This document shows, in pieces, positions 1-57,341 of a stretch of DNA of 64,000 nucleotides. The notes below the pieces were generated by a model. It ran no database searches and was not told the DNA's origin. It worked only from the letters and a program-made list of their open reading frames with translations. Both the position numbers and the translations under genes were made by a program. Source of the DNA: a virus (Duplodnaviria; Heunggongvirae; Uroviricota; Caudoviricetes); IMG/VR virus record IMGVR_UViG_2778261035_000005. One strand, given 5' to 3'. How positions within the stretch are numbered: the first letter of the stretch is position 1; each line of letters opens with the position of its first letter.

Positions 1-1038
1 AAGATGTCCAAGTCTCGCGGCACCTTTATTAAAGCCAGCACCTGGCTGAATCATTTTGACGCTGACAGCCTGCGTTACTACTACACTGCGAAACTCTCTT
101 CGCGCATTGATGATATCGATCTCAACCTGGAGGATTTCGTTCAGCGCGTGAATGCCGATATCGTGAACAAAGTGGTTAACCTGGCCTCCCGTAATGCAGG
201 CTTTATCAACAAGCGTTTTGACGGCGTGCTGGCAAGCGAACTGGCTGACCCGCAACTGTACAAAACCTTTACTGATGCTGCTGAAGTGATTGGTGAAGCA
301 TGGGAAAGCCGCGAATTTGGTAAAGCGATTCGTGAAATCATGGCGCTGGCTGATCTGGCTAACCGCTATGTCGATGAACAGGCTCCGTGGGTGGTGGCGA
401 AGCAGGAAGGGCGCGATGCCGATCTGCAGGCGATTTGCTCTATGGGCATTAACCTGTTCCGCGTGCTGATGACGTACCTGAAACCGGTACTGCCGAAACT
501 GACTGAACGTGCAGAAGCATTCCTGAATACAGAACTGACCTGGGATGGTATCCAGCAACCGCTGCTGGGCCATAAAGTGAATCCGTTCAAGGCACTGTAT
601 AACCGCATCGACATGAAGCAGGTTGAAGCACTGGTGGAAGCATCCAAAGAGGAAGTAAAAGCCGCTGCCGCGCCAGTAACTGGCCCACTGGCAGATGATC
701 CGATTCAGGAAACCATCACCTTTGACGACTTCGCCAAAGTTGACCTGCGCGTGGCTCTGATTGAAAACGCGGAGTTTGTCGAAGGTTCTGACAAACTGCT
801 TCGCCTGACGCTGGATCTCGGTGGCGAAAAACGTAATGTCTTCTCCGGCATTCGTTCCGCTTATCCAGATCCACAGGCACTGATTGGTCGTCACACCATT
901 ATGGTGGCCAACCTGGCTCCGCGTAAAATGCGCTTCGGTATCTCCGAAGGCATGGTGATGGCTGCTGGCCCCGGCGGGAAAGATATCTTCCTGTTAAGCC
1001 CGGATGCTGGTGCTAAACCAGGCCACCAGGTTAAGTAA
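1..1038 (+). CDS. metG: methionyl-tRNA synthetase, C-terminal part (5' end upstream of window)
   Basis: Frame open from window edge; translation starts at class I KMSKS motif and ends ...AKPGHQVK, recognised from memory as enterobacterial MetRS; stop 1036-1038. Confidence 0.93.
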
Positions 1039-7655: not shown

Positions 7656-7722
7656 AACGCGCCATCATTGGCGCGTTATGGTGGGAGTATTGGAAACGAA
7701 AAAAAGCGCCCATAGTGGGCGC
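7656..7722. terminator. pair of hairpin terminators (bidirectional) at 3' end of leftward operon
   Basis: aacgcgcc-atcatt-ggcgcgtt and gcgccca-tag-tgggcgc flanked by A-run / T-run. Confidence 0.6.
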
Positions 7723-7728
7723 TCGATT

Positions 7729-7959
7729 TTATTTGTGTAAACTGATTTTAAATCCCATTTCTACAAACGCTTTTAACATTAAAAATATATCAGCGTCGTT
7801 CACGTCTGCTTTTTTTCGCTCCTGGTCGCTCAATAAGTCAATTTTGCGCGTCGTTTCATCTATAAGCTCGACTGCGCGCCCAGCGTAACCAGCGATCCCA
7901 GCGATGCGATTAACATAATATTCATTATGGACGTTAACGCCAGCGATAAGAACAAACAT
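7729..7959 (-). CDS. hypothetical protein (76 aa)
   Basis: ORF, last gene of leftward operon. Confidence 0.45.
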   Translation of the reverse strand: MFVLIAGVNVHNEYYVNRIAGIAGYAGRAVELIDETTRKIDLLSDQERKKADVNDADIFLMLKAFVEMGFKISLHK

Positions 7960-7980
7960 GATTAAGCTCCTTAAAAAAAA

Positions 7981-8184
7981 TTAAATAGAATTTTGAAGTT
8001 TTCCGATTAATGCGCTTAAACGTAAGTATTCACGTTTGCGCTTGCAATCTCGCTTGCTGTTAAGCAAATCAGAAAACGTAAAATTTAATTGGTCGCGTTG
8101 CGCGATTAAATCATCGATTAATTCCAGTTTATAAGCGCGATACTTTGCGCGATATTCCGCGCGGATCTTGTCATAGCTGACCAT
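7981..8184 (-). CDS. hypothetical protein (about 68 aa)
   Basis: ORF; start moved to internal ATG 8184 with aaggag RBS, because hairpin 8202-8220 overlaps the track start. Confidence 0.45.
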   Translation of the reverse strand: MVSYDKIRAEYRAKYRAYKLELIDDLIAQRDQLNFTFSDLLNSKRDCKRKREYLRLSALIGKLQNSI

Positions 8185-8201
8185 TTTTAAAGCTCCTTTA
8201 A

Positions 8202-8220
8202 AGCGCCCATAGTGGGCGCT
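8202..8220. terminator. intercistronic hairpin (same sequence as 7706-7722)
   Basis: agcgcccatagtgggcgct repeated verbatim. Confidence 0.5.
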
Positions 8221-8232
8221 TGATTCCATTAA

Positions 8233-8883
8233 TTACGCTTTGAAAGCATCAGCTAAATAATTGTAGAAATCATTTTTAATGAAGCGATATTGCTGAGTAC
8301 CAGCTTTCGCGCTCCCAGCTCCTTTGACTTTTTCAACAAGTCCAAGACGTTCGCAAAGATTGATCAACTGGTTGGCTTGAGTATAGCCAGCGTCCAATTT
8401 AATTTCACACGCTTTTTTAGCTTCATTCATTAAATCGAAAACAGCGCCATTGGTGAACGTGTCGATCTCGTCGTTAATCATATCGATTAAAGCGAATACA
8501 CGAGATCCTGACATATCAGCGATGGAATAAACGCATTTACCAGATTTAATTGATTTAACCAGATAAACCAGTTTTTCCAGAGAATAACTATTAGTCATTG
8601 CATCACGGAAAAATACTTCTGGCGCTTGTTTGCTTGCTTTAATCGCATAGTAGAAAACAGAGCATAATTTTTCGTCTTCTACTGCGTTTACGACGTTGTT
8701 GATGAAGTAAGCAAGTTTAGTGGTCGCAGCTTGCATATTTGCTTTGTCTGCTTTAGTGTGCGTACCATTTTTATAATGTTCGTTATATGTTTGAGTTGCC
8801 AGATCTGCTTTTTCGCGCAGTTCATCGGATACAATAGATGCAGCTTCAATGATGGATTTTTTAGAAATGATAATGTTAGCCAT
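8233..8883 (-). CDS. hypothetical protein (216 aa)
   Basis: ORF with RBS aggaaa. Confidence 0.55.
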   Translation of the reverse strand: MANIIISKKSIIEAASIVSDELREKADLATQTYNEHYKNGTHTKADKANMQAATTKLAYFINNVVNAVEDEKLCSVFYYAIKASKQAPEVFFRDAMTNSYSLEKLVYLVKSIKSGKCVYSIADMSGSRVFALIDMINDEIDTFTNGAVFDLMNEAKKACEIKLDAGYTQANQLINLCERLGLVEKVKGAGSAKAGTQQYRFIKNDFYNYLADAFKA

Positions 8884-9166: not shown

Positions 9167-9475
9167 TTATTGAACAGACTCTACAGCCTTACGATTGGTG
9201 TCAAATAGCGCATCAACGAACTGTGCCGATGACTCGCTAGATTCGCAATCCAACATTGCCCGTTCTTCATTTGCCACTTTCTTACACAGTTCCACATTCT
9301 CACCTATCGCTTTTCCTGCTTTTACGGCTGCCGAAAATTGATACATGCAAACTGATACATTCTGAGACGTTGAGCACACGTCATTCATCAGCGACTGAAT
9401 GACAGGCTTATAGTCCATTGCATTTGCCGCAACTGAGCAAAGTAAAAATAATGGTGGTAACAATATCGATTTCAT
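9167..9475 (-). CDS. secreted Cys-rich small protein (102 aa)
   Basis: N-terminal signal peptide MKSILLPPLFLLCSVAANA; 6 Cys in mature part. Confidence 0.55.
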   Translation of the reverse strand: MKSILLPPLFLLCSVAANAMDYKPVIQSLMNDVCSTSQNVSVCMYQFSAAVKAGKAIGENVELCKKVANEERAMLDCESSESSAQFVDALFDTNRKAVESVQ

Positions 9476-9478
9476 AAC

Positions 9479-10003
9479 TCAAAAAGGCAAAATTCGTTCA
9501 ACCCAATCGAACAAAACAACTATTTTTCTACCGTTCTCGACACGTAGTGTAACCTGACAAGCATCTGCGCCTGCTGACACCCCCTCAATTTCACGGCCAT
9601 CCGCCATGTACACCCTTATAGATTTGTTTGCTTTGTAGGCTTGGTTGCAAATTGCAAAAAAATCGCGGCGTGATGGCCGATTATCGACATAATCAGGGTG
9701 AACTGTTAGTCGACCTTTGAAATCGTGAGCGATACTGTCAACCACACCTGATTCAATTGTACTAATGCGTTCAAGTGGGAGCCTTATACGATTTTCTTTG
9801 TCAAAAGGGGCTGGGCAAAGGTCAACTTTGTTACGAGATGGCATGAGGCCATAAACGTACATGCAAAACGCCTGGCCATCTTCGAGAGTGACCCTTACAG
9901 GAATTTGTTCTCTGCGCCAGAACATCAGTAGTTTTTCAACGTTAGTGTAATCTCGCGGCCAGAGTTCAGCTTGGATACCGTAGGTAATATCTTTGGTTGT
10001 CAT
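9479..10003 (-). CDS. hypothetical protein
   Basis: ORF; start trimmed to ATG 10003 to avoid overlap with upstream lipoprotein gene. Confidence 0.45.
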   Translation of the reverse strand: MTTKDITYGIQAELWPRDYTNVEKLLMFWRREQIPVRVTLEDGQAFCMYVYGLMPSRNKVDLCPAPFDKENRIRLPLERISTIESGVVDSIAHDFKGRLTVHPDYVDNRPSRRDFFAICNQAYKANKSIRVYMADGREIEGVSAGADACQVTLRVENGRKIVVLFDWVERILPF

Positions 10004-10007
10004 GTCA

Positions 10008-10430
10008 TCACAGAGTTGTTGGCAGAATGTCGATGTCACCAGAATTGCTGGTGAACACCCTGAACGCTTTTGTGTCTCCATTCTTCAGAGTCGTTTCTCG
10101 CTCTTGACGAGCGGGGTTTAGAGCACATAAACCTGCACCTTCAAGAGATGCACCCACAATTAATTCTCCGGCATTTAAATGGAAAGTCGCTTTTTCGCCT
10201 GTAGCCAGTTTTGCGACAGTTTCGCCGTTGATGAAAATGGAAGCATCACATCCAGCTCCTACAAAACCTGTGTCTCTCATTACCACCAACGTAGCTGGCG
10301 CTGCGCTTTGATACTTGAACACTTTGGCCTGCGGTGCTGGTTTGGCGTCATGGATTGATATTGGGCGTGATTGGCACGCGGTAAGCATCAACACTGGTAA
10401 CGTTAGTAGAGGGAGAAGCGAGTATTTCAT
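10008..10430 (-). CDS. lipoprotein (141 aa)
   Basis: Signal peptide with lipobox LTAC (MKYSLLPLLTLPVLMLTAC). Confidence 0.6.
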   Translation of the reverse strand: MKYSLLPLLTLPVLMLTACQSRPISIHDAKPAPQAKVFKYQSAAPATLVVMRDTGFVGAGCDASIFINGETVAKLATGEKATFHLNAGELIVGASLEGAGLCALNPARQERETTLKNGDTKAFRVFTSNSGDIDILPTTL

Positions 10431-10498
10431 GATAGTTTTAGAACAGAAAGTGAACAGTATGGGAGACTTCATCTTTGTCTCCCTAATTGATAGCGTGA

Positions 10499-10777
10499 TT
10501 ATTTTAATCTGCTTAATAGCGTTTCGAGATCTTCCTTTGTCATATTAGAGTTCTCATAGATACGCATGATTTTCTCACGAGTCTTAGCGGAAGCCCCGAC
10601 AGAAGATATAACCTTGTCAAAGTCGGCCATTGTCAATTGTTCCAGAATGGTATTTATGACTTCAGCCTTAGACATTTTGATATTTTTTTCTTTTAGTTTC
10701 ACTTGAAACTTTCCAAGTTTGTCATTGGCCTTATCAGACAATGCTACCTGACAGTAAGTTGTTTTCTTTTCACTCAT
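10499..10777 (-). CDS. hypothetical protein (92 aa)
   Basis: ORF directly downstream of helicase gene, 2-nt gap. Confidence 0.5.
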   Translation of the reverse strand: MSEKKTTYCQVALSDKANDKLGKFQVKLKEKNIKMSKAEVINTILEQLTMADFDKVISSVGASAKTREKIMRIYENSNMTKEDLETLLSRLK

Positions 10778-10779
10778 AA

Positions 10780-12339
10780 CTAATCTCGTTTCAGAACTCC
10801 AAAATCGAATGCTCCATCAATAGGCAATACACCTTCTGCAAAGCCAGGTGTGGTGTCGATGATGTGTTTTCGCTCATAAGAGTGAGACAACAGGTATTTG
10901 TTGCTAATGTCAATGAAATCAGTGATAAAACACACGTTTGCCTGATTTTTTTTGGCTCGTAAGCCACGACCGACACGCTGTCTCATTTCAACTTCTGCTT
11001 TCCCACCACCAGCAAGAATGACCGCACCAACGCTTGGCACATCAACACCAACATCCAGAATAGTCGAGCCTATTAAAACATCTATTTCACCAGACGCTAA
11101 ACTATTCAGCTTTGCTTGCCTTGTCGTCTGGTTAGATTCCCCATAGATGAAATCAACTTTAAGACCTGACTCCTTCATCATCTCCATCAGGATTTGCCCG
11201 TGGCGTTTAAGACGAACCAGAGTCATGCAGTTGAGTGAATGTTGCTTATAAAGCAATGCCTCGCGCACAATGGCCTCGTTACGTCCCAAATTATACACGA
11301 TCCCCAACTGATAAGCCTTTTGGTAGGCGGTGCTCATACCAACTCTAAAATTGAGGTGTTTGTTGGCAAGTTCGGCCTTGATTCTGGCCTCGTCTGGCTT
11401 GTAGGCAACTTTATGATAAAGGAAGTACGGCTTTGCCAGAATGCCTCGATCAATCAGGTACTTTTCTGTGACTTTAATTTCAATTCGCCCGGCCACCGCC
11501 ATCAGGCGCATGTTGGCTTCCGTCGAATCCTTCATGAACGGCGTGGCTGTAAGCGCCAGACGATAGTCTGCGTTCACACATAATCTGGCGATGTCATAGA
11601 AATTTGAGCCTGAAGACTCATGCGCCTCTTCCAGAATAAGAAGAGAGACACTTGAAAGGAAGCGTTTCACCAACTCCCGACGTTTGAGGTGGTAGCTTTT
11701 CTTATCTGGTGTTGCATCGCGTGGTGGTTCTTCGAGGAAACTTGCAAGAGTTTGAACTGTAGCGACGTTGATATGTCGTGATACCTGGAACTCACCCGAG
11801 CCAATGACTCCAACCTTTTGGTCTTTTAACCACGGTTCGCCATTTTCGGCGCGGTAGTCGATGGATCTCTGGAAGTTTTCGGCCATTTGAAACATCAGAA
11901 CAGAGCGGGTTGTTAAAAATAATGTCATTCGACCGATACGTGCAGCTGCTTTGCAGGCAACGTTAGATTTCCCGCCACCAGTAGCGATCTGCGCAATCAT
12001 CATTCCCTCTCGAACCAGTGTTTCCACAGTCTGATCCTGATACGCATAATCAGGATTGTATGGGAATGGGTTAACCGCAGGATTTGGTTTACCAAGCGCC
12101 GGGGCTTTGTCTTTGCGGATATGAACACATTTGATGCCCGCCTTGTTCAAGTTCGCCGCTACAGGCTTGGCAAAGCCAGCAGGGAACGAGTTTCTACTCC
12201 AGTTGAACATCGTGCTTGTGCCCTTCCAGTCGCCAGTCTCGACTTCGTAGCTCAACATCTGTTGCACCATTTGCTTTACCTTGTCATCTGCGCCAGAAAT
12301 AAGCGCATTAACTGCGTTAGATACAATCCGAACAGTCAT
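10780..12339 (-). CDS. superfamily 2 DEAD/DEAH-type helicase
   Basis: Walker A ATGGGKS, DEAH-like LILEEAHE, motif III LTATP, motif VI QRVGRGLR. Confidence 0.8.
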   Translation of the reverse strand: MTVRIVSNAVNALISGADDKVKQMVQQMLSYEVETGDWKGTSTMFNWSRNSFPAGFAKPVAANLNKAGIKCVHIRKDKAPALGKPNPAVNPFPYNPDYAYQDQTVETLVREGMMIAQIATGGGKSNVACKAAARIGRMTLFLTTRSVLMFQMAENFQRSIDYRAENGEPWLKDQKVGVIGSGEFQVSRHINVATVQTLASFLEEPPRDATPDKKSYHLKRRELVKRFLSSVSLLILEEAHESSGSNFYDIARLCVNADYRLALTATPFMKDSTEANMRLMAVAGRIEIKVTEKYLIDRGILAKPYFLYHKVAYKPDEARIKAELANKHLNFRVGMSTAYQKAYQLGIVYNLGRNEAIVREALLYKQHSLNCMTLVRLKRHGQILMEMMKESGLKVDFIYGESNQTTRQAKLNSLASGEIDVLIGSTILDVGVDVPSVGAVILAGGGKAEVEMRQRVGRGLRAKKNQANVCFITDFIDISNKYLLSHSYERKHIIDTTPGFAEGVLPIDGAFDFGVLKRD

Positions 12340-12382
12340 AAACCTCTTTCCTTAGTGCCTTTTGTATGTTATTTGGCTATTA

Positions 12383-12404
12383 TAATAAGTAAGTGATTAC
12401 CTAG
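12383..12404. promoter_or_regulatory. TAAGTA-family motif in divergent promoter region
   Basis: taataagtaagtgattacctag between helicase (-) and ParB-like (+) genes. Confidence 0.4.
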
Positions 12405-13102
12405 TGGATTGTAGCAATAAAATGGATGTAAAAATCACGATTTTGCAGGTTGATGTTGCCAACCTTCGCCCGAATACCTGGAACACCAATTCGGTTGGTG
12501 CGCAGAATTTTGAAAAACTGAAAGGTTCTATCGAAAAATTGGGCTTTTTTAAGCCAATTTTGGCTCGTGAACTTGAAGATGGATTTTTTGAAATCCTCGG
12601 CGGCGAACATCGCTGGCGTGCTGCTATTGAGCAAGGAATTTCAACGGTTCCGGTGCTTTCTGTGGGCAAAATTAGCGATGTCGTAGCTAAACAGATGTCA
12701 CTGGTGGACAACGAGCGATACGGTGAAGACGACCAAATCGCATTGCAACGCTTCATTGAAGAAATTCAGTCAGAACTTGACTATCAACTGTCTGAAATCG
12801 CCCCGTATGACGACGAAATCTCGATGGTTTTAGCAAAAGAGGCGGCAATCGACCTTGAAGCACTGGAGGCGTTGTCTCGTGGTAGTGATGAGCCTGTCGA
12901 TACCGACAAACGAGAGAAAACCGAACGTGTGGGTGCGGAACATCAGACCATGCGCTTCAAAGTAACTTTCGATGCGTCAGATCGTGTTGCAGAAACCATA
13001 AAAAACATCATCAAAGAGCAGGCTATTAACACCGGTAATGAAATGGAGAACGCTGGTGAGGCTCTGGTGTGGCTGGTCGACTACTACAAGGAGCGTATGT
13101 AA
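12404..13102 (+). CDS. ParB/Srx-like nuclease-domain protein
   Basis: ParB N-terminal domain signature ...FEILGGEHRWRAA...; GTG 12404 or ATG 12422. Confidence 0.7.
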   Translation: MDCSNKMDVKITILQVDVANLRPNTWNTNSVGAQNFEKLKGSIEKLGFFKPILARELEDGFFEILGGEHRWRAAIEQGISTVPVLSVGKISDVVAKQMSLVDNERYGEDDQIALQRFIEEIQSELDYQLSEIAPYDDEISMVLAKEAAIDLEALEALSRGSDEPVDTDKREKTERVGAEHQTMRFKVTFDASDRVAETIKNIIKEQAINTGNEMENAGEALVWLVDYYKERM

Positions 13103-13770
13103 TGACCAAAAAGTTTGAAATCGTATATCGCGACCCGGCAGATCTTATTCCCTATGAGATGAATGCCAAAAAGCATGATGAACAGCAGATCCGAGATCTA
13201 GCCGCAGCCATTAAAAAGCGCGGATTTGACCAGCCAATTACGGTCGATAAGAACGACGTAATTATTACTGGCCACGGCCGCCGTGAGGCTGCAATTTTTG
13301 CTGGACTTGAGCGCGTACCGGTTATTGTTCGCGATGATCTCAGTGATGACGAGGTTCGTGCGAAGCGCCTTGAAGATAACCGACTTGCCAGCATTGATTA
13401 CGATGCAATTAAGCTACAGAAAGAGCTTGAGTCGCTTGTTCTGGACGATATCGAGGTTTTCGGCTTTGAAGAGCGTGAGTTGAATGTTCTCGTTGGCAGC
13501 ATGACAGAAGAAATGGACACCGACTCGCTAGTTATCGATCTTGGCGAAGAAACTAAACGACAGAAGGATGAACACACCGAGATCAGTCGTGAAGTTGCAG
13601 CGGAAGAAGTACGTGTTGTCGACGTATTGGGCTTTAAAACGCTTCCTGCTGGCTCTGCCATTGTTGTTGGTGATTTGCTTGCCCACATGGAAGAAATGAC
13701 GGGAGAAAGCGGGGTAGACGCATTTGTGGCATATGCGGAGAAGATCTCTTCCGGGGAGATGGCTGCATGA
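13102..13770 (+). CDS. second ParB/Srx-like domain protein
   Basis: ...VIITGHGRREAAIFAG... ParB-like motif; start overlaps previous stop (taATGa). Confidence 0.7.
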   Translation: MTKKFEIVYRDPADLIPYEMNAKKHDEQQIRDLAAAIKKRGFDQPITVDKNDVIITGHGRREAAIFAGLERVPVIVRDDLSDDEVRAKRLEDNRLASIDYDAIKLQKELESLVLDDIEVFGFEERELNVLVGSMTEEMDTDSLVIDLGEETKRQKDEHTEISREVAAEEVRVVDVLGFKTLPAGSAIVVGDLLAHMEEMTGESGVDAFVAYAEKISSGEMAA

Positions 13771-14432
13771 GCAAATACATCATCAACGTATCGTTTCAGA
13801 CACGCGTAAATAAAACCACGCGCACGTTGGAAATCGCTGAGTCGTTCGGGCTTGGCCTGGACGAAAAAGAGTGGACGCTTTACGACAATCTGGAGCTGGA
13901 AGTGAAGCAGGGCGATGTGGTGTACATCACCGGCCAATCCGGTTCCGGCAAATCCGTTGTGCTGCGCGAGTTGCAACGACAGATGAAGGATGAAGGGCTG
14001 TCTGTAGCCTCCATCGATGATTTTACCTTCGATAATGAGGTTAACGTCATCGATCAGTTGGGCAAAACGACCAGCGATGCGCTTGGGTTGTTATCTATGG
14101 CTGGTCTGAACGATGCATATCTGTTTGTTCGCAAGCCTTCTGAAATGTCAGACGGTCAGAAATATCGTCTCAAGATTGCCAAACTGATTGAGTCAGGCGC
14201 TAAAGTGTGGGCTGCTGACGAGTTCGGCGCTGTTCTCGACCGTGTAACCGCTCAGGTTGTGGCGTCTAACCTCCAGCGTGCCGCTCGAAAGGTTGGTGCG
14301 ACGGTAATGGTGGCGACGACTCACGAAGACCTGAAGAACGCGCTGCGCCCGGATATGCAGATCACCAAGCACTACAAAGAACGCGTGAAGGTGGAATATC
14401 ACAATGGTAGTCATGATGAGGTCCATTCATGA
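13767..14432 (+). CDS. ABC-type P-loop ATPase
   Basis: Walker A GQSGSGKS, ABC-signature-like MSDGQKYR, Walker B VWAADEF, H-loop ATTHE; overlaps neighbours by 4 nt. Confidence 0.7.
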   Translation: MSKYIINVSFQTRVNKTTRTLEIAESFGLGLDEKEWTLYDNLELEVKQGDVVYITGQSGSGKSVVLRELQRQMKDEGLSVASIDDFTFDNEVNVIDQLGKTTSDALGLLSMAGLNDAYLFVRKPSEMSDGQKYRLKIAKLIESGAKVWAADEFGAVLDRVTAQVVASNLQRAARKVGATVMVATTHEDLKNALRPDMQITKHYKERVKVEYHNGSHDEVHS

Positions 14433-15319
14433 CGGACATCATCATTAAACGCTACCGCCCTGAAGAGTTTCCGCGTCATCTGGACTTTCTGGAGCGAATG
14501 ACTGTTACAAAGGGAACTGTAGAGGACTGGCACGCTCTTAAGTCGCTTCACTACAAAACAGACGGCAAACCTTTCGCGCCAACTTACTATCGCTGCGAAC
14601 TTGATGACCGTCTGGTGGGCGTCGTGGTTATGGCTTACCCGAAACTACTGTTGGCACCTCGCCACCGCATGTTTCCTAAGTTGAAACCAACCACTAATAC
14701 CACCGTGGCTAACCAGTACTGGGGTCGGTACGTGAATAACAACTTTGCGGTGATCAGTCGCTCAGTTGTGGATACTCAGTATCGTGGCGTAGGCGTCTCT
14801 TATCGAATGATTAACCTGGTTAGCAGGATGCATGACCGGCCAATCATTGAGATCCAGTCCTCGATGAGCAAATACAATCCCTTCGCCATGAAAGCAGGGT
14901 TTAAGTTCATCCGCCCTGAGCGACCGAAGAGCTATGAAAGTGCACTGCGTGTATTCCAGCGCCATTTCCGTTCCGACCCGGGTGATAACGAGGCGATCGT
15001 CAAAGAGTTGTTCGCAATGAGCGAGTCTCGTCGTCGCCGTGCACTGCGTGATCTGGTGGCGGACTACCACAAGAACAGTTCCCTGGCAAAAGCTGGGCGG
15101 AATCGTGGCACGACGATTCAGGACATTGCCGACAGTCTGGTGGACGAGGCCAGCATTGTGAAGCTGCTCAAGGACATTCACAACCTGAGCTTTACGTCTC
15201 CGTTGTATGGTGTGTACCGAAACCCTGACTTTGGCCGTCGACTGCCTGACACGCTGCCACTGCTGGCATTCGACAAACAACCTTTGGATAAACCGTTAGA
15301 AATTGCTTTACCGGCATAA
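14429..15319 (+). CDS. GNAT-fold-like protein (296 aa)
   Basis: Acetyl-CoA-binding-like motif VVDTQYRGVGVSYRMINLV; weak assignment. Confidence 0.45.
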   Translation: MTDIIIKRYRPEEFPRHLDFLERMTVTKGTVEDWHALKSLHYKTDGKPFAPTYYRCELDDRLVGVVVMAYPKLLLAPRHRMFPKLKPTTNTTVANQYWGRYVNNNFAVISRSVVDTQYRGVGVSYRMINLVSRMHDRPIIEIQSSMSKYNPFAMKAGFKFIRPERPKSYESALRVFQRHFRSDPGDNEAIVKELFAMSESRRRRALRDLVADYHKNSSLAKAGRNRGTTIQDIADSLVDEASIVKLLKDIHNLSFTSPLYGVYRNPDFGRRLPDTLPLLAFDKQPLDKPLEIALPA

Positions 15320-15328
15320 GGATTTGCC

Positions 15329-15595
15329 ATGACGTTAACCGATAAACAAAAGGACATCATCAAAACGCTCAATCTCGGTTATGAGCGAGGTCATCTACTT
15401 GACCTGGACGAATTGCTTGAAGTTTTGCCGTACAAGACAACCAAGCAAAGTATCCAGTTCTCAATTCGCGCTCTGATAAAAAAGGGGCTGGTGGAGAAAG
15501 GGCATACGCGCCAACGCAGTGACAATCGCTATCACCGCCGGACTCTTGGGTTAACCACTTTAGGTCGAGCCAAAGCGAAGTTACTGGTGATGTAA
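15329..15595 (+). CDS. small basic protein, possible winged-helix DNA binder
   Basis: 88-aa ORF; helix-rich basic segment SIRALIKKGLVEKG. Confidence 0.4.
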   Translation: MTLTDKQKDIIKTLNLGYERGHLLDLDELLEVLPYKTTKQSIQFSIRALIKKGLVEKGHTRQRSDNRYHRRTLGLTTLGRAKAKLLVM

Positions 15596-15626
15596 TCGGT
15601 CTGGGAGCTTATTTAAAGACCTGCAT

Positions 15627-43823: not shown

Positions 43824-44345
43824 TTATTCTTCGAACAATTTTTCGATAGATTTTGTAGGATAGAACAAAGAACGCTCGTTGTTACCAACCAGCTGGATAA
43901 AGCCTAAACTTTTATAAAACGCCTTGGCTTTGTCATTTAACGCCTCAACGAAAAGTCCATGAATGCCTACAGCAAGAGATGCATTGTACACAACGCGCAT
44001 TGCATGTGTTACAAGCATTGAGCCAAATCCTTGACCTTGAAGGGACTTGTCCAAAGCCAGCCTACCCAAAGTAACACTTGGAACATTCCGATAAGGTACC
44101 TTCTTTTGCTGGCTTCTTGAAGGTAAGGACTCCTTTTCAAAGCAGCTACCTGACAAAGTGTAATACCCTAACACTTTTGGTCTGCCTTCTTTCGTGCAAA
44201 GCACATAAGCGCGAAGAATTTTTCCCTCATGCTGCCTTTTTAAGTGGTTGGTTAAAAAGGCATTTAGTGATTCTTCACCGCAATCAAAACCATTCAAATC
44301 ATAATCTTTCTCTCCAGAGAAAATTTCTATCTTTATATTATCCAC
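43824..44345 (-). CDS. GNAT-family acetyltransferase toxin (TacT/AtaT-like)
   Basis: GNAT motif GRLALDKSLQGQGFGSMLV; immediately downstream of DUF1778-type antitoxin. Confidence 0.75.
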   Translation of the reverse strand: MDNIKIEIFSGEKDYDLNGFDCGEESLNAFLTNHLKRQHEGKILRAYVLCTKEGRPKVLGYYTLSGSCFEKESLPSRSQQKKVPYRNVPSVTLGRLALDKSLQGQGFGSMLVTHAMRVVYNASLAVGIHGLFVEALNDKAKAFYKSLGFIQLVGNNERSLFYPTKSIEKLFEE

Positions 44346-44352
44346 GAGTAAA

Positions 44353-44622
44353 CTACTCCATGCTTTTCAGACGATCAGCAGCTCGTTTCAGCTTGTCGTT
44401 CGGTGCCGGAGGATTGCTTATAGCGTCCATAACCAGATTCCAGGATTCTTCATTCAGAACTAGTCTACGGTGTTGCTCTATAACTTTCACGGCACGTTCA
44501 GATGCACTGCTAACCATAAACTGAGTAATGCTCTGGTTAGACATTGCGGCAGCTTCCTCGATGATGCTTTTATCGTCATCGGTTAATCTCAAATCGATGC
44601 GCTGCTTTTTTAGTGCTGACAT
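44353..44622 (-). CDS. DUF1778/RHH antitoxin (TacA/AtaR-like)
   Basis: MSALKKQRIDLRLTDDDKSIIEEAA... characteristic N-terminus; antitoxin-first order. Confidence 0.75.
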   Translation of the reverse strand: MSALKKQRIDLRLTDDDKSIIEEAAAMSNQSITQFMVSSASERAVKVIEQHRRLVLNEESWNLVMDAISNPPAPNDKLKRAADRLKSME

Positions 44623-56888: not shown

Positions 56889-56963
56889 GATGGTGTAGCT
56901 CAGCGGTAGAGCAGTTGGCTGTTAACCAACTGGTCGGTGGTTCGAATCCACCCACCATCGCCA
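56889..56963 (+). tRNA. tRNA-Asn (anticodon GTT)
   Basis: Cloverleaf read by hand: acceptor gatggtg/caccatc, anticodon loop ctGTTaa, T-loop ggtggttcgaatccacc, 3' CCA. Confidence 0.85.
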
Positions 56964-56965
56964 AT

Positions 56966-57041
56966 GCCGGTTTAGCTCAGTTGGTAGAGCACCTGCCTTG
57001 TAAGCAGGATGTCAGCGGTTCGAATCCGTTAACCGGCACCA
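56966..57041 (+). tRNA. tRNA-Thr (anticodon TGT)
   Basis: acceptor gccggtt/aaccggc, anticodon stem cctgc/gcagg, loop ctTGTaa, T-loop ttcgaat, 3' CCA. Confidence 0.85.
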
Positions 57042-57254
57042 ACACAACAGGAAAGAGCATTGAGAACCGCCGAGACTGCCCTGTTTGAAGCGTAAGTCCG
57101 TGCAAACGTCATACAGTGCTCTTTTCGTTGTGGTGAATGCGGCTAAGCGCACGCGGGGAAATGGTTATATTGATCCTTTGTGATGACTATTGGCTCCGTC
57201 CACGGTGGATAACCAGCCAAAGGACACCGGGAAGCACCCGGCACCACAACAATT

Positions 57255-57341
57255 GGAGAGTAGGGAGCATGGTGCTCAAGCGGTCTTGAAAACCGTCCCA
57301 TTGCGCAAGCGATGATGGTTCGATTCCATTACTCTCCGCCA
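57255..57341 (+). tRNA. tRNA-Ser-like (anticodon TGA, long variable arm), D-arm atypical
   Basis: acceptor ggagagt/actctcc, anticodon loop ctTGAaa, variable-arm hairpin cattgc-gcaa-gcgatg, T-loop ggttcgattcc, 3' CCA. Confidence 0.6.

What the first reader, a model, noticed from the sequence alone, without database searches (positions are those of the whole stretch)
9167..12339. Leftward operon pairing an SF2 helicase with a lipoprotein and a secreted Cys-rich protein
The helicase has full DEAD/DEAH-type motifs but is short (519 aa) and is followed by a 92-aa ORF, a lipoprotein with lipobox LTAC and a signal-peptide protein with six cysteines. Envelope proteins in an early operon are classic candidates for superinfection exclusion or receptor masking; the helicase may serve recombination or replication restart.
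Basis: inference. Interest (0 to 1): 0.45.

Follow-up and report, generated by a model that had tools for sequence, protein, structure and literature searches.

The report
Phage-plasmid helicase operon with hidden FljA homolog

Summary
The ORFs are real and the coordinates are right. The window is an SSU5-like phage-plasmid, 100% identical here to E. coli plasmid pWP4-S18-ESBL-07_2.

The interval holds five minus-strand genes, not four:
- an XPB/UvsW-like SF2 helicase (519 aa)
- a 92-aa partner
- a lipoprotein (lipobox LTAC)
- a 102-aa Sec-exported protein with five cysteines, four of them invariant in the mature part (not six)

A conserved terminator hairpin closes the unit.

In enterobacterial SSU5-like elements, the FljA-like gene occurs about 1:1 with the helicase, and orf92 followed the helicase in every locus examined. 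The lipoprotein and the 102-aa protein are exchangeable cargo.

The FljA-like protein is 34% identical to genuine FljA. It models as two tandem Sm/Hfq-like domains. No flagellin gene accompanies it. It is intact in about 345 Klebsiella plasmids, so flagellin may not be its main target.

Homologs of the lipoprotein sit between tail genes K and I of unrelated temperate phages. This gives contextual support to the exclusion idea.

The helicase is accessory, because the element encodes its own DnaB-like helicase, primase and DnaE.

The finding is ordinary overall and moderately interesting only for the orphan FljA homolog. No function has been tested.

The parts
12340..12421 (.). 82-bp divergent control region between the helicase operon and the rightward ParB-like operon. 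It contains a conserved TATAAT on the minus strand at 12384..12379.
   Evidence: It is 79-98% identical across 7 phage-plasmids, with 61 of 83 alignment columns invariant, although helicase synonymous sites are saturated. The promoter role is inferred. The consensus scan did not call it.
10780..12339 (-). SF2 DNA helicase/translocase, 519 aa, XPB/UvsW-like
   Evidence: Pfam ResIII 55.1, DEAD 54 and Helicase_C 49.9 bits, all above cut-off. PHROG 16 'DNA helicase' E 1.5e-93. Motifs I, II, III and VI are present. PDB best matches are XPBII 1.7e-12, Rad25 and UvsW 2e-8. It is 90-99% identical across enterobacterial SSU5-like elements and 42-47% in Acinetobacter ones.
10499..10777 (-). orf92, a small partner of the helicase starting 2 nt after its stop codon; possibly a ribbon-helix-helix DNA-binding protein
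   Evidence: PHROG 1466 E 5e-46, function unknown. It follows the helicase in every locus examined, and the ORF after the Acinetobacter helicase aligns with it at 21% identity. The RHH reading rests on the sequence pattern only. Pfam and PDB searches were negative.
10008..10430 (-). Outer-membrane lipoprotein, 140 aa from the conserved M15 (the ORF extends to 10472). The lipobox is LTA|C with Gln at +2, and two further Cys are invariant.
9479..10003 (-). FljA-family protein, 174 aa, starting 4 nt after the lipoprotein stop codon. Predicted to be a tandem Sm/Hfq-like RNA-binding protein.
9167..9475 (-). orf102, a Sec-exported periplasmic protein (83 aa when mature) with four invariant cysteines, starting 3 nt after the FljA-like stop codon
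   Evidence: PHROG 9536 E 6e-55, function unknown. The signal peptide and AxA site are kept in five homologs of 67-70% identity. C34, C43, C64 and C77 are invariant. dN/dS is 0.08-0.14. Present in 259 plasmid records.
9130..9155 (-). Intrinsic terminator hairpin with a 10-bp stem (TAATAACCGG/CCGGTTATTA) followed by a T-run, 11 nt after the orf102 stop codon
   Evidence: Found by the terminator scan and as an inverted repeat. The stem is invariant and the loop variable in five diverged phage-plasmids.

Best explanation
SHOWN. The interval is the conserved leftward 'helicase operon' of an SSU5-type phage-plasmid. It has five tightly spaced minus-strand genes. A strongly conserved 82-bp divergent control region lies upstream and a conserved terminator hairpin lies downstream.

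INFERRED, DNA-handling head. This part consists of an XPB/UvsW-like SF2 translocase and an obligate 92-aa partner that may be a ribbon-helix-helix protein. The element already encodes DnaB-like, primase, DnaE, ligase and RepB functions. I therefore take this helicase to remodel forks or branched recombination intermediates during phage-plasmid replication, not to act as the replicative helicase.

INFERRED, tail behind a recombination breakpoint. This part holds two exchangeable envelope morons flanking an RNA-binding regulator. The morons are an outer-membrane lipoprotein and a periplasmic protein with four invariant cysteines (two probable disulfides). The regulator is the FljA-like protein, built from two Sm/Hfq-like domains.

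INFERRED, the FljA-like protein. By analogy with FljA it should bind an mRNA leader and block translation. It is a core gene of enterobacterial SSU5-like elements, lacks any linked flagellin gene, and stays intact in Klebsiella elements. I commit to its primary target being a transcript of the phage-plasmid itself or of a host function common to all hosts. Flagellin mRNA would then be at most a secondary target in motile hosts.

INFERRED, the envelope proteins. The lipoprotein most plausibly alters the envelope of the carrier cell to exclude incoming phage. The role of the periplasmic protein is open.
For: - Identity of the element: 100% match to pWP4-S18-ESBL-07_2, 99.3% to phage CMS-2020a and 79% to SSU5.
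- Gene reality and families.
- Operon architecture: gaps of 2, 68 (26 from the ORF's first ATG), 4 and 3 nt; conserved terminator and control region.
- Helicase class. The element has its own replisome genes.
- Core versus cargo: the helicase is in 1003 plasmid records and the FljA-like gene in 835. Genus counts are almost identical: Klebsiella 346/345, Escherichia 229/229, Enterobacter 92/92, Yersinia 62/62. The lipoprotein is in 421 records and orf102 in 259.
- Breakpoint: against phage Cyrano, dS is 0.09 in the helicase but 1.08 in orf92 and 1.36 in the FljA-like gene. The middle slot holds different genes in pSTM_Phi, Klebsiella pC110 and Cyrano.
- FljA kinship and fold. Shared motifs are DI(T/S)YG..AE.WPRDY, PSRRD(F/Y)F.ICN, DACQV and FDWV.RI.
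- No flagellin or hin in the window or in the whole 110-kb reference plasmid.
- 826 of 835 FljA-like copies are near full length.
- The whole FljA family gives only 29 hits among 1.84 billion representative proteins, about six of them full-length clusters.
- Lipoprotein as a mobile moron near tail-tip genes.
Against: - No expression, binding or phenotype data exist for any of the five genes, and no paper on them was found.
- The only tested activity in the FljA family is fliC repression, and an orphan plasmid-borne fljA makes E. coli non-motile (PMC2652032). Flagellin therefore remains a live candidate target.
- No candidate RNA target was identified in the element. The fliC-leader similarity search gave only chance-level hits.
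- The Klebsiella argument assumes long residence in Klebsiella, and that Klebsiella lacks flagellin (textbook knowledge, not tested here).
- The RHH call for orf92 has no HMM support.
- The lipoprotein model is low confidence, and it matches no PHROG family annotated for exclusion and no PADLOC defence family.
- Whether all five genes share one transcript has not been shown. A weak promoter-like site lies at 10527..10498.
Confidence: 0.45

Rival explanations
1. Flagellin silencing (lysogenic conversion). The FljA-like protein binds the host fliC mRNA leader and blocks its translation, so carrier or infected cells stop making flagella. Together with the outer-membrane lipoprotein and the periplasmic protein, this remodels the cell surface. 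Possible benefits are protection from flagellotropic phages, energy saving, or evasion of flagellin recognition.
For: - Full-length homology to FljA with the most conserved blocks shared.
- FljA family members act post-transcriptionally on fliC. The pBSSB1 derivative pBSSB2 carries fljA-z66 with a disrupted fljB gene and makes motile E. coli non-motile (PMC2652032).
- Most host genera of these elements are flagellated: Escherichia, Salmonella, Enterobacter, Citrobacter, Cronobacter.
- The gene is absent from the distant Acinetobacter elements, whose hosts lack flagella.
Against: - About 345 Klebsiella and 62 Y. pestis plasmids keep an intact copy. Klebsiella copies retain the invariant N-terminal motif.
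- Identity to genuine FljA is only 34%.
- The gene behaves as a core gene rather than a moron.
- From general knowledge, not tested here: pHCM2-carrying S. Typhi CT18 still expresses H:d flagella.
Confidence: 0.3
2. The genes downstream of the helicase form a superinfection-exclusion or receptor-masking module made of envelope proteins. The helicase is an unrelated replication or recombination function.
For: - The lipoprotein and orf102 are exported, accessory and frequently exchanged.
- Lipoprotein homologs lie between tail genes K and I, next to the receptor-binding J gene, in lambdoid and other temperate phages.
- A lipoprotein cannot be a virion part, because it is exported.
Against: - The model ignores the FljA-like gene that sits between the two envelope genes.
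- The envelope proteins match no PHROG family annotated for exclusion and no PADLOC defence family.
- No sequence match to any solved structure.
- SSU5 itself lacks orf102.
Confidence: 0.2
3. The helicase is the motor of a defence or anti-defence system of the PbeA, Dnd-restriction or type III restriction kind, and the downstream genes are its partners.
For: PADLOC PbeA E 7e-23. NCBIfam dnd_restrict_1 59 bits. Pfam ResIII.
Against: - All matches cover only the generic helicase core and fall far below family cut-offs (59 against 600 bits).
- There is no nuclease or sensor domain. The N-terminal 98 aa match nothing.
- No partner gene of those systems is present.
- The gene is a syntenic core gene next to the ParB and terminase block, even in Acinetobacter elements.
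Confidence: 0.05

Closest known systems
Salmonella FljA, the phase-1 flagellin repressor (Pfam PF03614). Comparator here: the hin-fljB-fljA copy on pS2122_1.
   Same: Same Pfam family at 281.7 bits. Same length (174 against 179 aa). 34% identity end to end, with shared motif blocks.
   Different: No adjacent flagellin gene or Hin invertase. A core gene of a phage-plasmid lineage. Also present in elements of non-flagellated hosts. Its RNA target is unknown.
Plasmid-borne fljA-z66 of the S. Typhi linear plasmid pBSSB1 and E. coli flkB-type repressors
   Same: An FljA-family gene carried on a mobile element. It silences the chromosomal fliC post-transcriptionally, including in E. coli (PMC2652032).
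   Different: Those genes sit directly downstream of a flagellin gene and are close to canonical FljA. The paper reports 67% identity to S. Typhimurium LT2 FljA and 98% to an E. coli phase-1 repressor. The protein here is an orphan and only 34% identical.
Hfq and Sm/Lsm RNA-binding proteins
   Different: Two such domains lie in one chain. The Pfam Hfq score is below cut-off, 19.1 against 27 bits. The halves show no significant sequence similarity to each other. Ring formation is untested.
Archaeal XPB/Rad25, phage T4 UvsW and RecG (SF2 DNA translocases)
   Same: Two RecA-like domains with motifs I, II, III and VI. These are the best matches among solved structures.
   Different: Scores are far below the ortholog cut-offs (XPB 50.9 against 610 bits). 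The UvsW match covers only residues 338-485. The N-terminal 98 aa are unassigned.
Phage-encoded envelope morons such as T5 Llp, phi80/N15 Cor and lambda Bor/Lom (comparison from general knowledge)
   Same: A temperate-phage-encoded outer-membrane lipoprotein. Family members are inserted beside tail-tip and receptor-binding genes.
   Different: No sequence or fold match to these proteins turned up in the searches. No exclusion phenotype is known. In this element the gene lies in the helicase operon, not in the tail module.
mEp390 gp17 and the Y. pestis pMT1 putative lipoprotein (PHROG 890)
   Same: The same protein family: 38% identity to mEp390 gp17 and 82% to the pMT1 copy.
   Different: None in kind. 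All members are uncharacterised.

Membership tests
SF2 helicases (DEAD/DEAH/ResIII) | Walker A (motif I), DExH-type motif II, motif III and the arginine-finger motif VI in two RecA-like domains | tested here: met
   ATGGGKS, EEAH, TAT and QRVGRGLR are present. Pfam ResIII, DEAD and Helicase_C score above their cut-offs.
XPB or UvsW orthologs | Full-length match above the curated ortholog threshold, including the N-terminal damage- or branch-recognition domain | tested here: not met
   NCBIfam XPB scores 50.9 bits against a cut-off of 610. The UvsW match covers only residues 338-485. The N-terminal 98 aa match nothing.
FljA (PF03614, repressor of phase-1 flagellin) | Sequence membership above Pfam's gathering score and a full-length alignment to a genuine FljA | tested here: met
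   281.7 bits against a cut-off of 24. 34% identity, E 2e-37, residues 1-171 aligned to residues 4-172 of FljA.
FljA (PF03614, repressor of phase-1 flagellin) | Genetic linkage to an alternative flagellin gene (fljB or flk) and, in Salmonella, the hin switch | tested here: not met
   tblastn with FljB and Hin finds nothing in the window or in the 110-kb reference plasmid. No flagellin is annotated there.
FljA (PF03614, repressor of phase-1 flagellin) | Binds the fliC mRNA 5' leader and blocks FliC synthesis | not testable with these tools
   This needs motility assays, FliC western blots or RNA-binding assays. No fliC-leader-like sequence exists in the element.
Sm/Hfq fold | N-terminal helix followed by five strongly bent strands, with structural superposition on Hfq | tested here: met
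Sm/Hfq fold | Sequence membership (Pfam Hfq) and ring oligomerisation | tested here: not met
   Pfam Hfq scores 19.1 bits against a cut-off of 27. Oligomeric state cannot be tested here.
Bacterial lipoproteins | Signal peptide ending in the lipobox [LVI][ASTVI][GAS]C with an invariant Cys | tested here: met
   MKYSLLPLLTLPVLMLTA|C. The Cys and the M15 start are invariant in 15 homologs.
Known phage superinfection-exclusion or defence proteins | Sequence match to a PHROG or PADLOC family annotated for exclusion or defence | tested here: not met
   The lipoprotein matches only PHROG 890 'lipoprotein'. orf102 matches only families of unknown function. Neither has a PADLOC hit.
DUF2846 (PF11008) | Score above the gathering threshold | tested here: not met
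   17.8-18.1 bits against a cut-off of 34.3, covering only 48 residues.
LecB/PA-IIL-type lectins | Lectin beta-sandwich fold with calcium- and sugar-binding residues | tested here: inconclusive
Sec-exported periplasmic proteins (orf102) | An n-h-c signal peptide with an AxA cleavage site, conserved among homologs | tested here: met
   The region MK + hydrophobic core + A-x-A | MDYKP is kept in five homologs while its sequence drifts. No dedicated signal-peptide predictor was available.
Single operon | Same strand, short gaps, one promoter region and one terminator | tested here: inconclusive
   The gaps are 2, 68, 4 and 3 nt. The terminator and the upstream region are conserved. No transcript data exist, and a weak internal promoter-like site lies at 10527..10498.

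The most novel reading that the evidence does not exclude
The FljA family is at root a phage-plasmid gene family. It would be a tandem-Sm RNA-binding translational regulator that serves as a core component of SSU5-like elements and controls a phage-plasmid or general host transcript unrelated to flagella. That would explain why it survives in Klebsiella and Y. pestis elements. On this reading, the Salmonella/E. coli flagellin repressor FljA is a domesticated offshoot, recruited into the hin-fljBA switch alongside a phage-type invertase.
Probability: 0.35. Interest if true: 0.6.

Novelty: new member of a known kind. Interest (0 to 1): 0.38.

Why it matters
SSU5-like phage-plasmids are common. 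A match to this interval is present in 240 of 5,426 complete E. coli genomes, always on plasmids, and the helicase is found in about 1000 plasmid records, including S. Typhi pHCM2 and Y. pestis pMT1. Many carry resistance genes, yet their core genes are mostly 'hypothetical'.

Showing what the FljA-like protein binds would answer one of two questions. If it binds fliC mRNA, these elements switch off motility and a major antigen in their hosts, which bears on serotyping, immunity and flagellotropic phages. If it binds something else, that would uncover a new RNA-level control circuit in phage-plasmids and the evolutionary source of the classical flagellar phase-variation repressor.

The lipoprotein family is a widespread temperate-phage moron of untested function. 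It is a cheap target for exclusion assays.

Tried and rejected
- fliC 5' leader mimic in the element, as a possible self-target of the FljA-like protein: blastn-short gave only chance-level hits of 13 nt or less.
- PDB sequence searches for the FljA-like protein, lipoprotein, orf102 and orf92: nothing meaningful.
- Pfam at E up to 10 for orf92, orf102, the lipoprotein and the helicase N-terminus: only noise, plus sub-threshold DUF2846.
- NCBIfam: no family for the four small proteins.
- PADLOC: only generic helicase-core and ATPase hits. The defence-system reading was rejected.
- Internal-repeat test of the two FljA-like halves with hhalign: not significant, probability 1.5%. The tandem-domain claim therefore rests on the model only.
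- BFVD fold search with the lipoprotein model: no match at E 0.001 or better, TM 0.42 or lower.
- The lipoprotein structure prediction itself was weak (pLDDT 60), so the LecB resemblance is kept only as a lead.
- Literature: no paper linked SSU5, pHCM2 or phage-plasmids to fljA, flagellin or motility. The primary FljA mechanism papers were not held.
- Rfam found no RNA family in or near the operon.
- The idea that the ORFs are chance ORFs was rejected on dN/dS and family matches.
- The PGAP start for orf102 (M20, no signal peptide) was rejected because the upstream 19 codons keep signal-peptide character in diverged homologs.
Full report
**What the window is.** The 3.5 kb around the finding is 100% identical to E. 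coli plasmid pWP4-S18-ESBL-07_2 (110 kb, non-mobilizable). It is 99.3% identical to Escherichia phage CMS-2020a and about 79% identical to Salmonella phage SSU5. The window is therefore part of an SSU5-type phage-plasmid. Window coordinate = plasmid coordinate + 3898. A match to the interval occurs in 240 of 5,426 complete E. coli genomes, always on plasmids. The complete five-gene arrangement occurs in 95 of them.

**Checking the observation.** The minus strand between 12339 and 9167 carries five genes, not four.

- **Helicase (12339..10780, 519 aa).** It has motif I ATGGGKS, motif II EEAH, motif III TAT and motif VI QRVGRGLR. Pfam ResIII, DEAD and Helicase_C all score above their cut-offs.
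- **orf92 (10777..10499).** It starts 2 nt after the helicase stop codon.
- **Lipoprotein.** The ORF reaches 10472, but the conserved start is M15 at 10430. The signal peptide ends in L-T-A-C, and that Cys is invariant in 15 homologs.
- **FljA-family gene (10003..9479, 174 aa).** It starts 4 nt after the lipoprotein stop codon. Pfam PF03614 'repressor of phase-1 flagellin' gives E 2.5e-84, and PHROG 1444 gives 1.9e-100.
- **orf102 (9475..9167).** It starts 3 nt further on.

Some E. coli records annotate orf102 from M20, without a signal peptide. I reject that start. In five homologs of 67-70% identity the first 19 codons stay open and keep the pattern MK-hydrophobic-AxA, while the mature part begins with the invariant MDYKPVIQSLMNDVC. 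The protein has five cysteines. The four in the mature part are invariant, and the one in the signal peptide is not.

All five are real genes. PHROG E-values are 5e-46 or better, and dN/dS is 0.05-0.17 wherever dS is not saturated.

**Operon boundaries.**

- A hairpin (TAATAACCGG-loop-CCGGTTATTA followed by a T-run) lies 11 nt after the orf102 stop codon. Its stem is invariant and its loop variable in five diverged elements.
- The 82-bp region upstream of the helicase, shared with the divergent ParB-like operon, is 79-98% identical. 61 of 83 alignment columns are invariant across seven elements whose helicase synonymous sites are saturated.
- That region contains a conserved TATAAT, but the consensus promoter scan did not call a promoter there.
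- A single transcript is therefore likely but not shown.

**Core versus cargo.** tblastn counts in 72,556 plasmid records were as follows.

| Gene | Records |
|---|---|
| Helicase | 1003 |
| FljA-like | 835 |
| Lipoprotein | 421 |
| orf102 | 259 |

- Helicase and FljA-like genus counts are nearly identical: Klebsiella 346/345, Escherichia 229/229, Enterobacter 92/92, Yersinia 62/62.
- The extra helicase records are mostly Acinetobacter elements (153 records at 42-47% identity), which have no FljA-like match.
- orf92 follows the helicase in every locus examined. The ORF after the Acinetobacter helicase aligns with it at 21% identity.
- Against phage Cyrano, dS is 0.09 in the helicase but 1.08 in orf92 and 1.36 in the FljA-like gene.
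- The slot between orf92 and the FljA-like gene holds different genes in pSTM_Phi, Klebsiella pC110 and Cyrano.
- The picture is a conserved head, a recombination-prone cargo slot, and a conserved FljA-like gene with an optional orf102.

**The helicase.** The closest solved relatives by sequence are archaeal XPBII (1.7e-12), Rad25/XPB, T4 UvsW (2e-8), RecG and UvrB. Every curated ortholog model scores far below its cut-off. The PbeA and Dnd-restriction hits cover only the generic motor core. The reference plasmid encodes a DnaB-like helicase, primase, DnaE, ligase, two exonucleases and RepB. This SF2 enzyme is thus an accessory DNA translocase. The orf92 sequence pattern (a strand, then two helices with 'KLSKAEIIN') resembles a ribbon-helix-helix protein, but no profile supports this.

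**The FljA-like protein.**

- *Kinship.* It aligns end to end with an annotated FljA from a hin-fljB-fljA cassette: 34% identity, E 2e-37. The shared blocks are DI(T/S)YG..AE.WPRDY, PSRRD(F/Y)F.ICN, DACQV and FDWV.RI.
- *Family size.* A profile search of 1.84 billion representative proteins found only 29 hits and about six full-length clusters. These are the phage-plasmid clade, canonical FljA and a few divergent forms. At least one divergent form is again from about 110-kb Klebsiella contigs.
- *Distribution among phages.* In the phage collection it occurs only in a dozen records of SSU5-like phages, plus two short fragments.
- *No linked flagellin.* No flagellin or Hin gene is present in the window or in the whole reference plasmid.
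- *Existing annotation.* Public records already label it: SSU5 has 'putative repressor of phase 1 flagellin', and a Typhi cluster whose longest contig is 106,747 bp, about the size of pHCM2, has 'repressor of fliC'. I found no functional study.

**What the FljA-like protein does.** FljA-type proteins block fliC translation. The pBSSB1 derivative pBSSB2 carries fljA-z66 with its flagellin gene disrupted, and it makes motile E. coli non-motile (PMC2652032). That makes flagellin silencing a serious hypothesis. Three observations argue against it as the main role.

- The gene is a core gene rather than a moron.
- 826 of 835 copies are near full length, including about 345 in Klebsiella and 62 in Y. 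pestis. Both hosts are non-motile by textbook knowledge.
- Klebsiella copies keep the invariant N-terminal motif.

I therefore favour a target common to all hosts or encoded by the element (about 0.45) over flagellin mRNA (about 0.3). No candidate target was found; a search for a fliC-leader mimic gave chance-level hits only.

**The envelope proteins.**

- *Lipoprotein sorting.* Gln at +2 predicts outer-membrane sorting, by the general +2 rule. Two further Cys are invariant.
- *Lipoprotein context.* This is more informative. Homologs of 27-51% identity occur in unrelated temperate phages. In E. coli phage mEp390, a linear N15-like Klebsiella plasmid-prophage and a Pseudomonas phage, they are inserted between tail genes K and I, just upstream of J. 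An exported lipoprotein cannot be a virion part. This is the classic position of a moron acting on the carrier cell's envelope, which gives indirect support to the exclusion idea.
- *orf102.* Nothing comparable is available for orf102. Its homologs are confined to SSU5-like elements, and it is absent from SSU5 and Cyrano.

**Verdict.** The operon is an ordinary, widely distributed and partly annotated module of a known phage-plasmid family. Its one feature of real interest is the orphan, core, tandem-Sm FljA homolog, whose function could be settled by simple motility and RNA-binding experiments.

Noticed in passing
window 12422-15600 (+); also L014:841-3413: Two ParB-N-domain proteins, an ABC-type ATPase and an ATPase/acetyltransferase-like fusion sit directly upstream of the terminase genes, divergent from the helicase. 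The same ParB/ABC block faces the helicase in the distant Acinetobacter phage-plasmid p1DB053. Its role (partition or packaging) is unclear. PADLOC gives weak mad3/mad8 and ParB-methyltransferase-type hits.
   Followed up: partly
window 10499-10780 (boundary just 3' of the helicase): There is a sharp recombination breakpoint. Against phage Cyrano the helicase has dS 0.09, while orf92 has 1.08 and the FljA-like gene 1.36. DNA-level similarity in many E. coli plasmids stops at about the same point.
   Followed up: partly
window 7729-8883 (-) and hairpins 7656-7724: A second leftward unit begins 246 nt after the operon terminator (the orf216 start at 8883). It holds orf216, orf82 (annotated as 67 aa elsewhere) and orf76, and ends in two tandem terminator hairpins. 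All are of unknown function. The PHROG and SSU5 label 'MIT family metal ion transporter' for the 67-aa protein looks doubtful.
   Followed up: partly
window 56889-57341 (+): Three tRNA genes (Asn-GTT, Thr-TGT, Ser-TGA) are carried by the phage-plasmid.
   Followed up: no
window 4-1038 (+): This is the 3' part of a phage-plasmid-encoded methionyl-tRNA ligase gene (metG), which lies next to an apbC-like gene in the reference plasmid. That is unusual cargo for a phage.
   Followed up: no
window 43824-44622 (-): A GNAT-family acetyltransferase and a DUF1778 protein form a pair on the minus strand, amid rightward phage genes. This is the usual layout of a toxin-antitoxin addiction module.
   Followed up: no
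window 9419-9475, 10431-10472; L001:4042-4554: Start codons are annotated inconsistently in public records. orf102 is cut to 83 aa (losing its signal peptide) in E. coli RefSeq records, but is full length in Salmonella, Klebsiella and Citrobacter records. It is unannotated in one pHCM2 record although the ORF is intact. The SSU5 FljA-like gene is annotated as 148 aa although homology extends to about 170 aa. The E. coli lipoprotein is extended to 154 aa.
   Followed up: yes
L015:2956-3378; L016:2920-3366; L017:3001-3363: The lipoprotein family (PHROG 890) recurs as an insertion between tail genes K and I, upstream of J. This is seen in an E. coli lambdoid phage, a Klebsiella linear plasmid-prophage and a Pseudomonas phage. 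The family is also present in Vibrio anguillarum phages.
   Followed up: partly
P0152 cluster; plasmids CP056499, CP110757, LR890700, CP037443: Rare, highly divergent FljA-family alleles (166 aa) occur on about 104-114 kb Klebsiella plasmids. They lack the otherwise invariant N-terminal DITYG..WPRDY motif but keep the C-terminal FDWV motif.
   Followed up: partly
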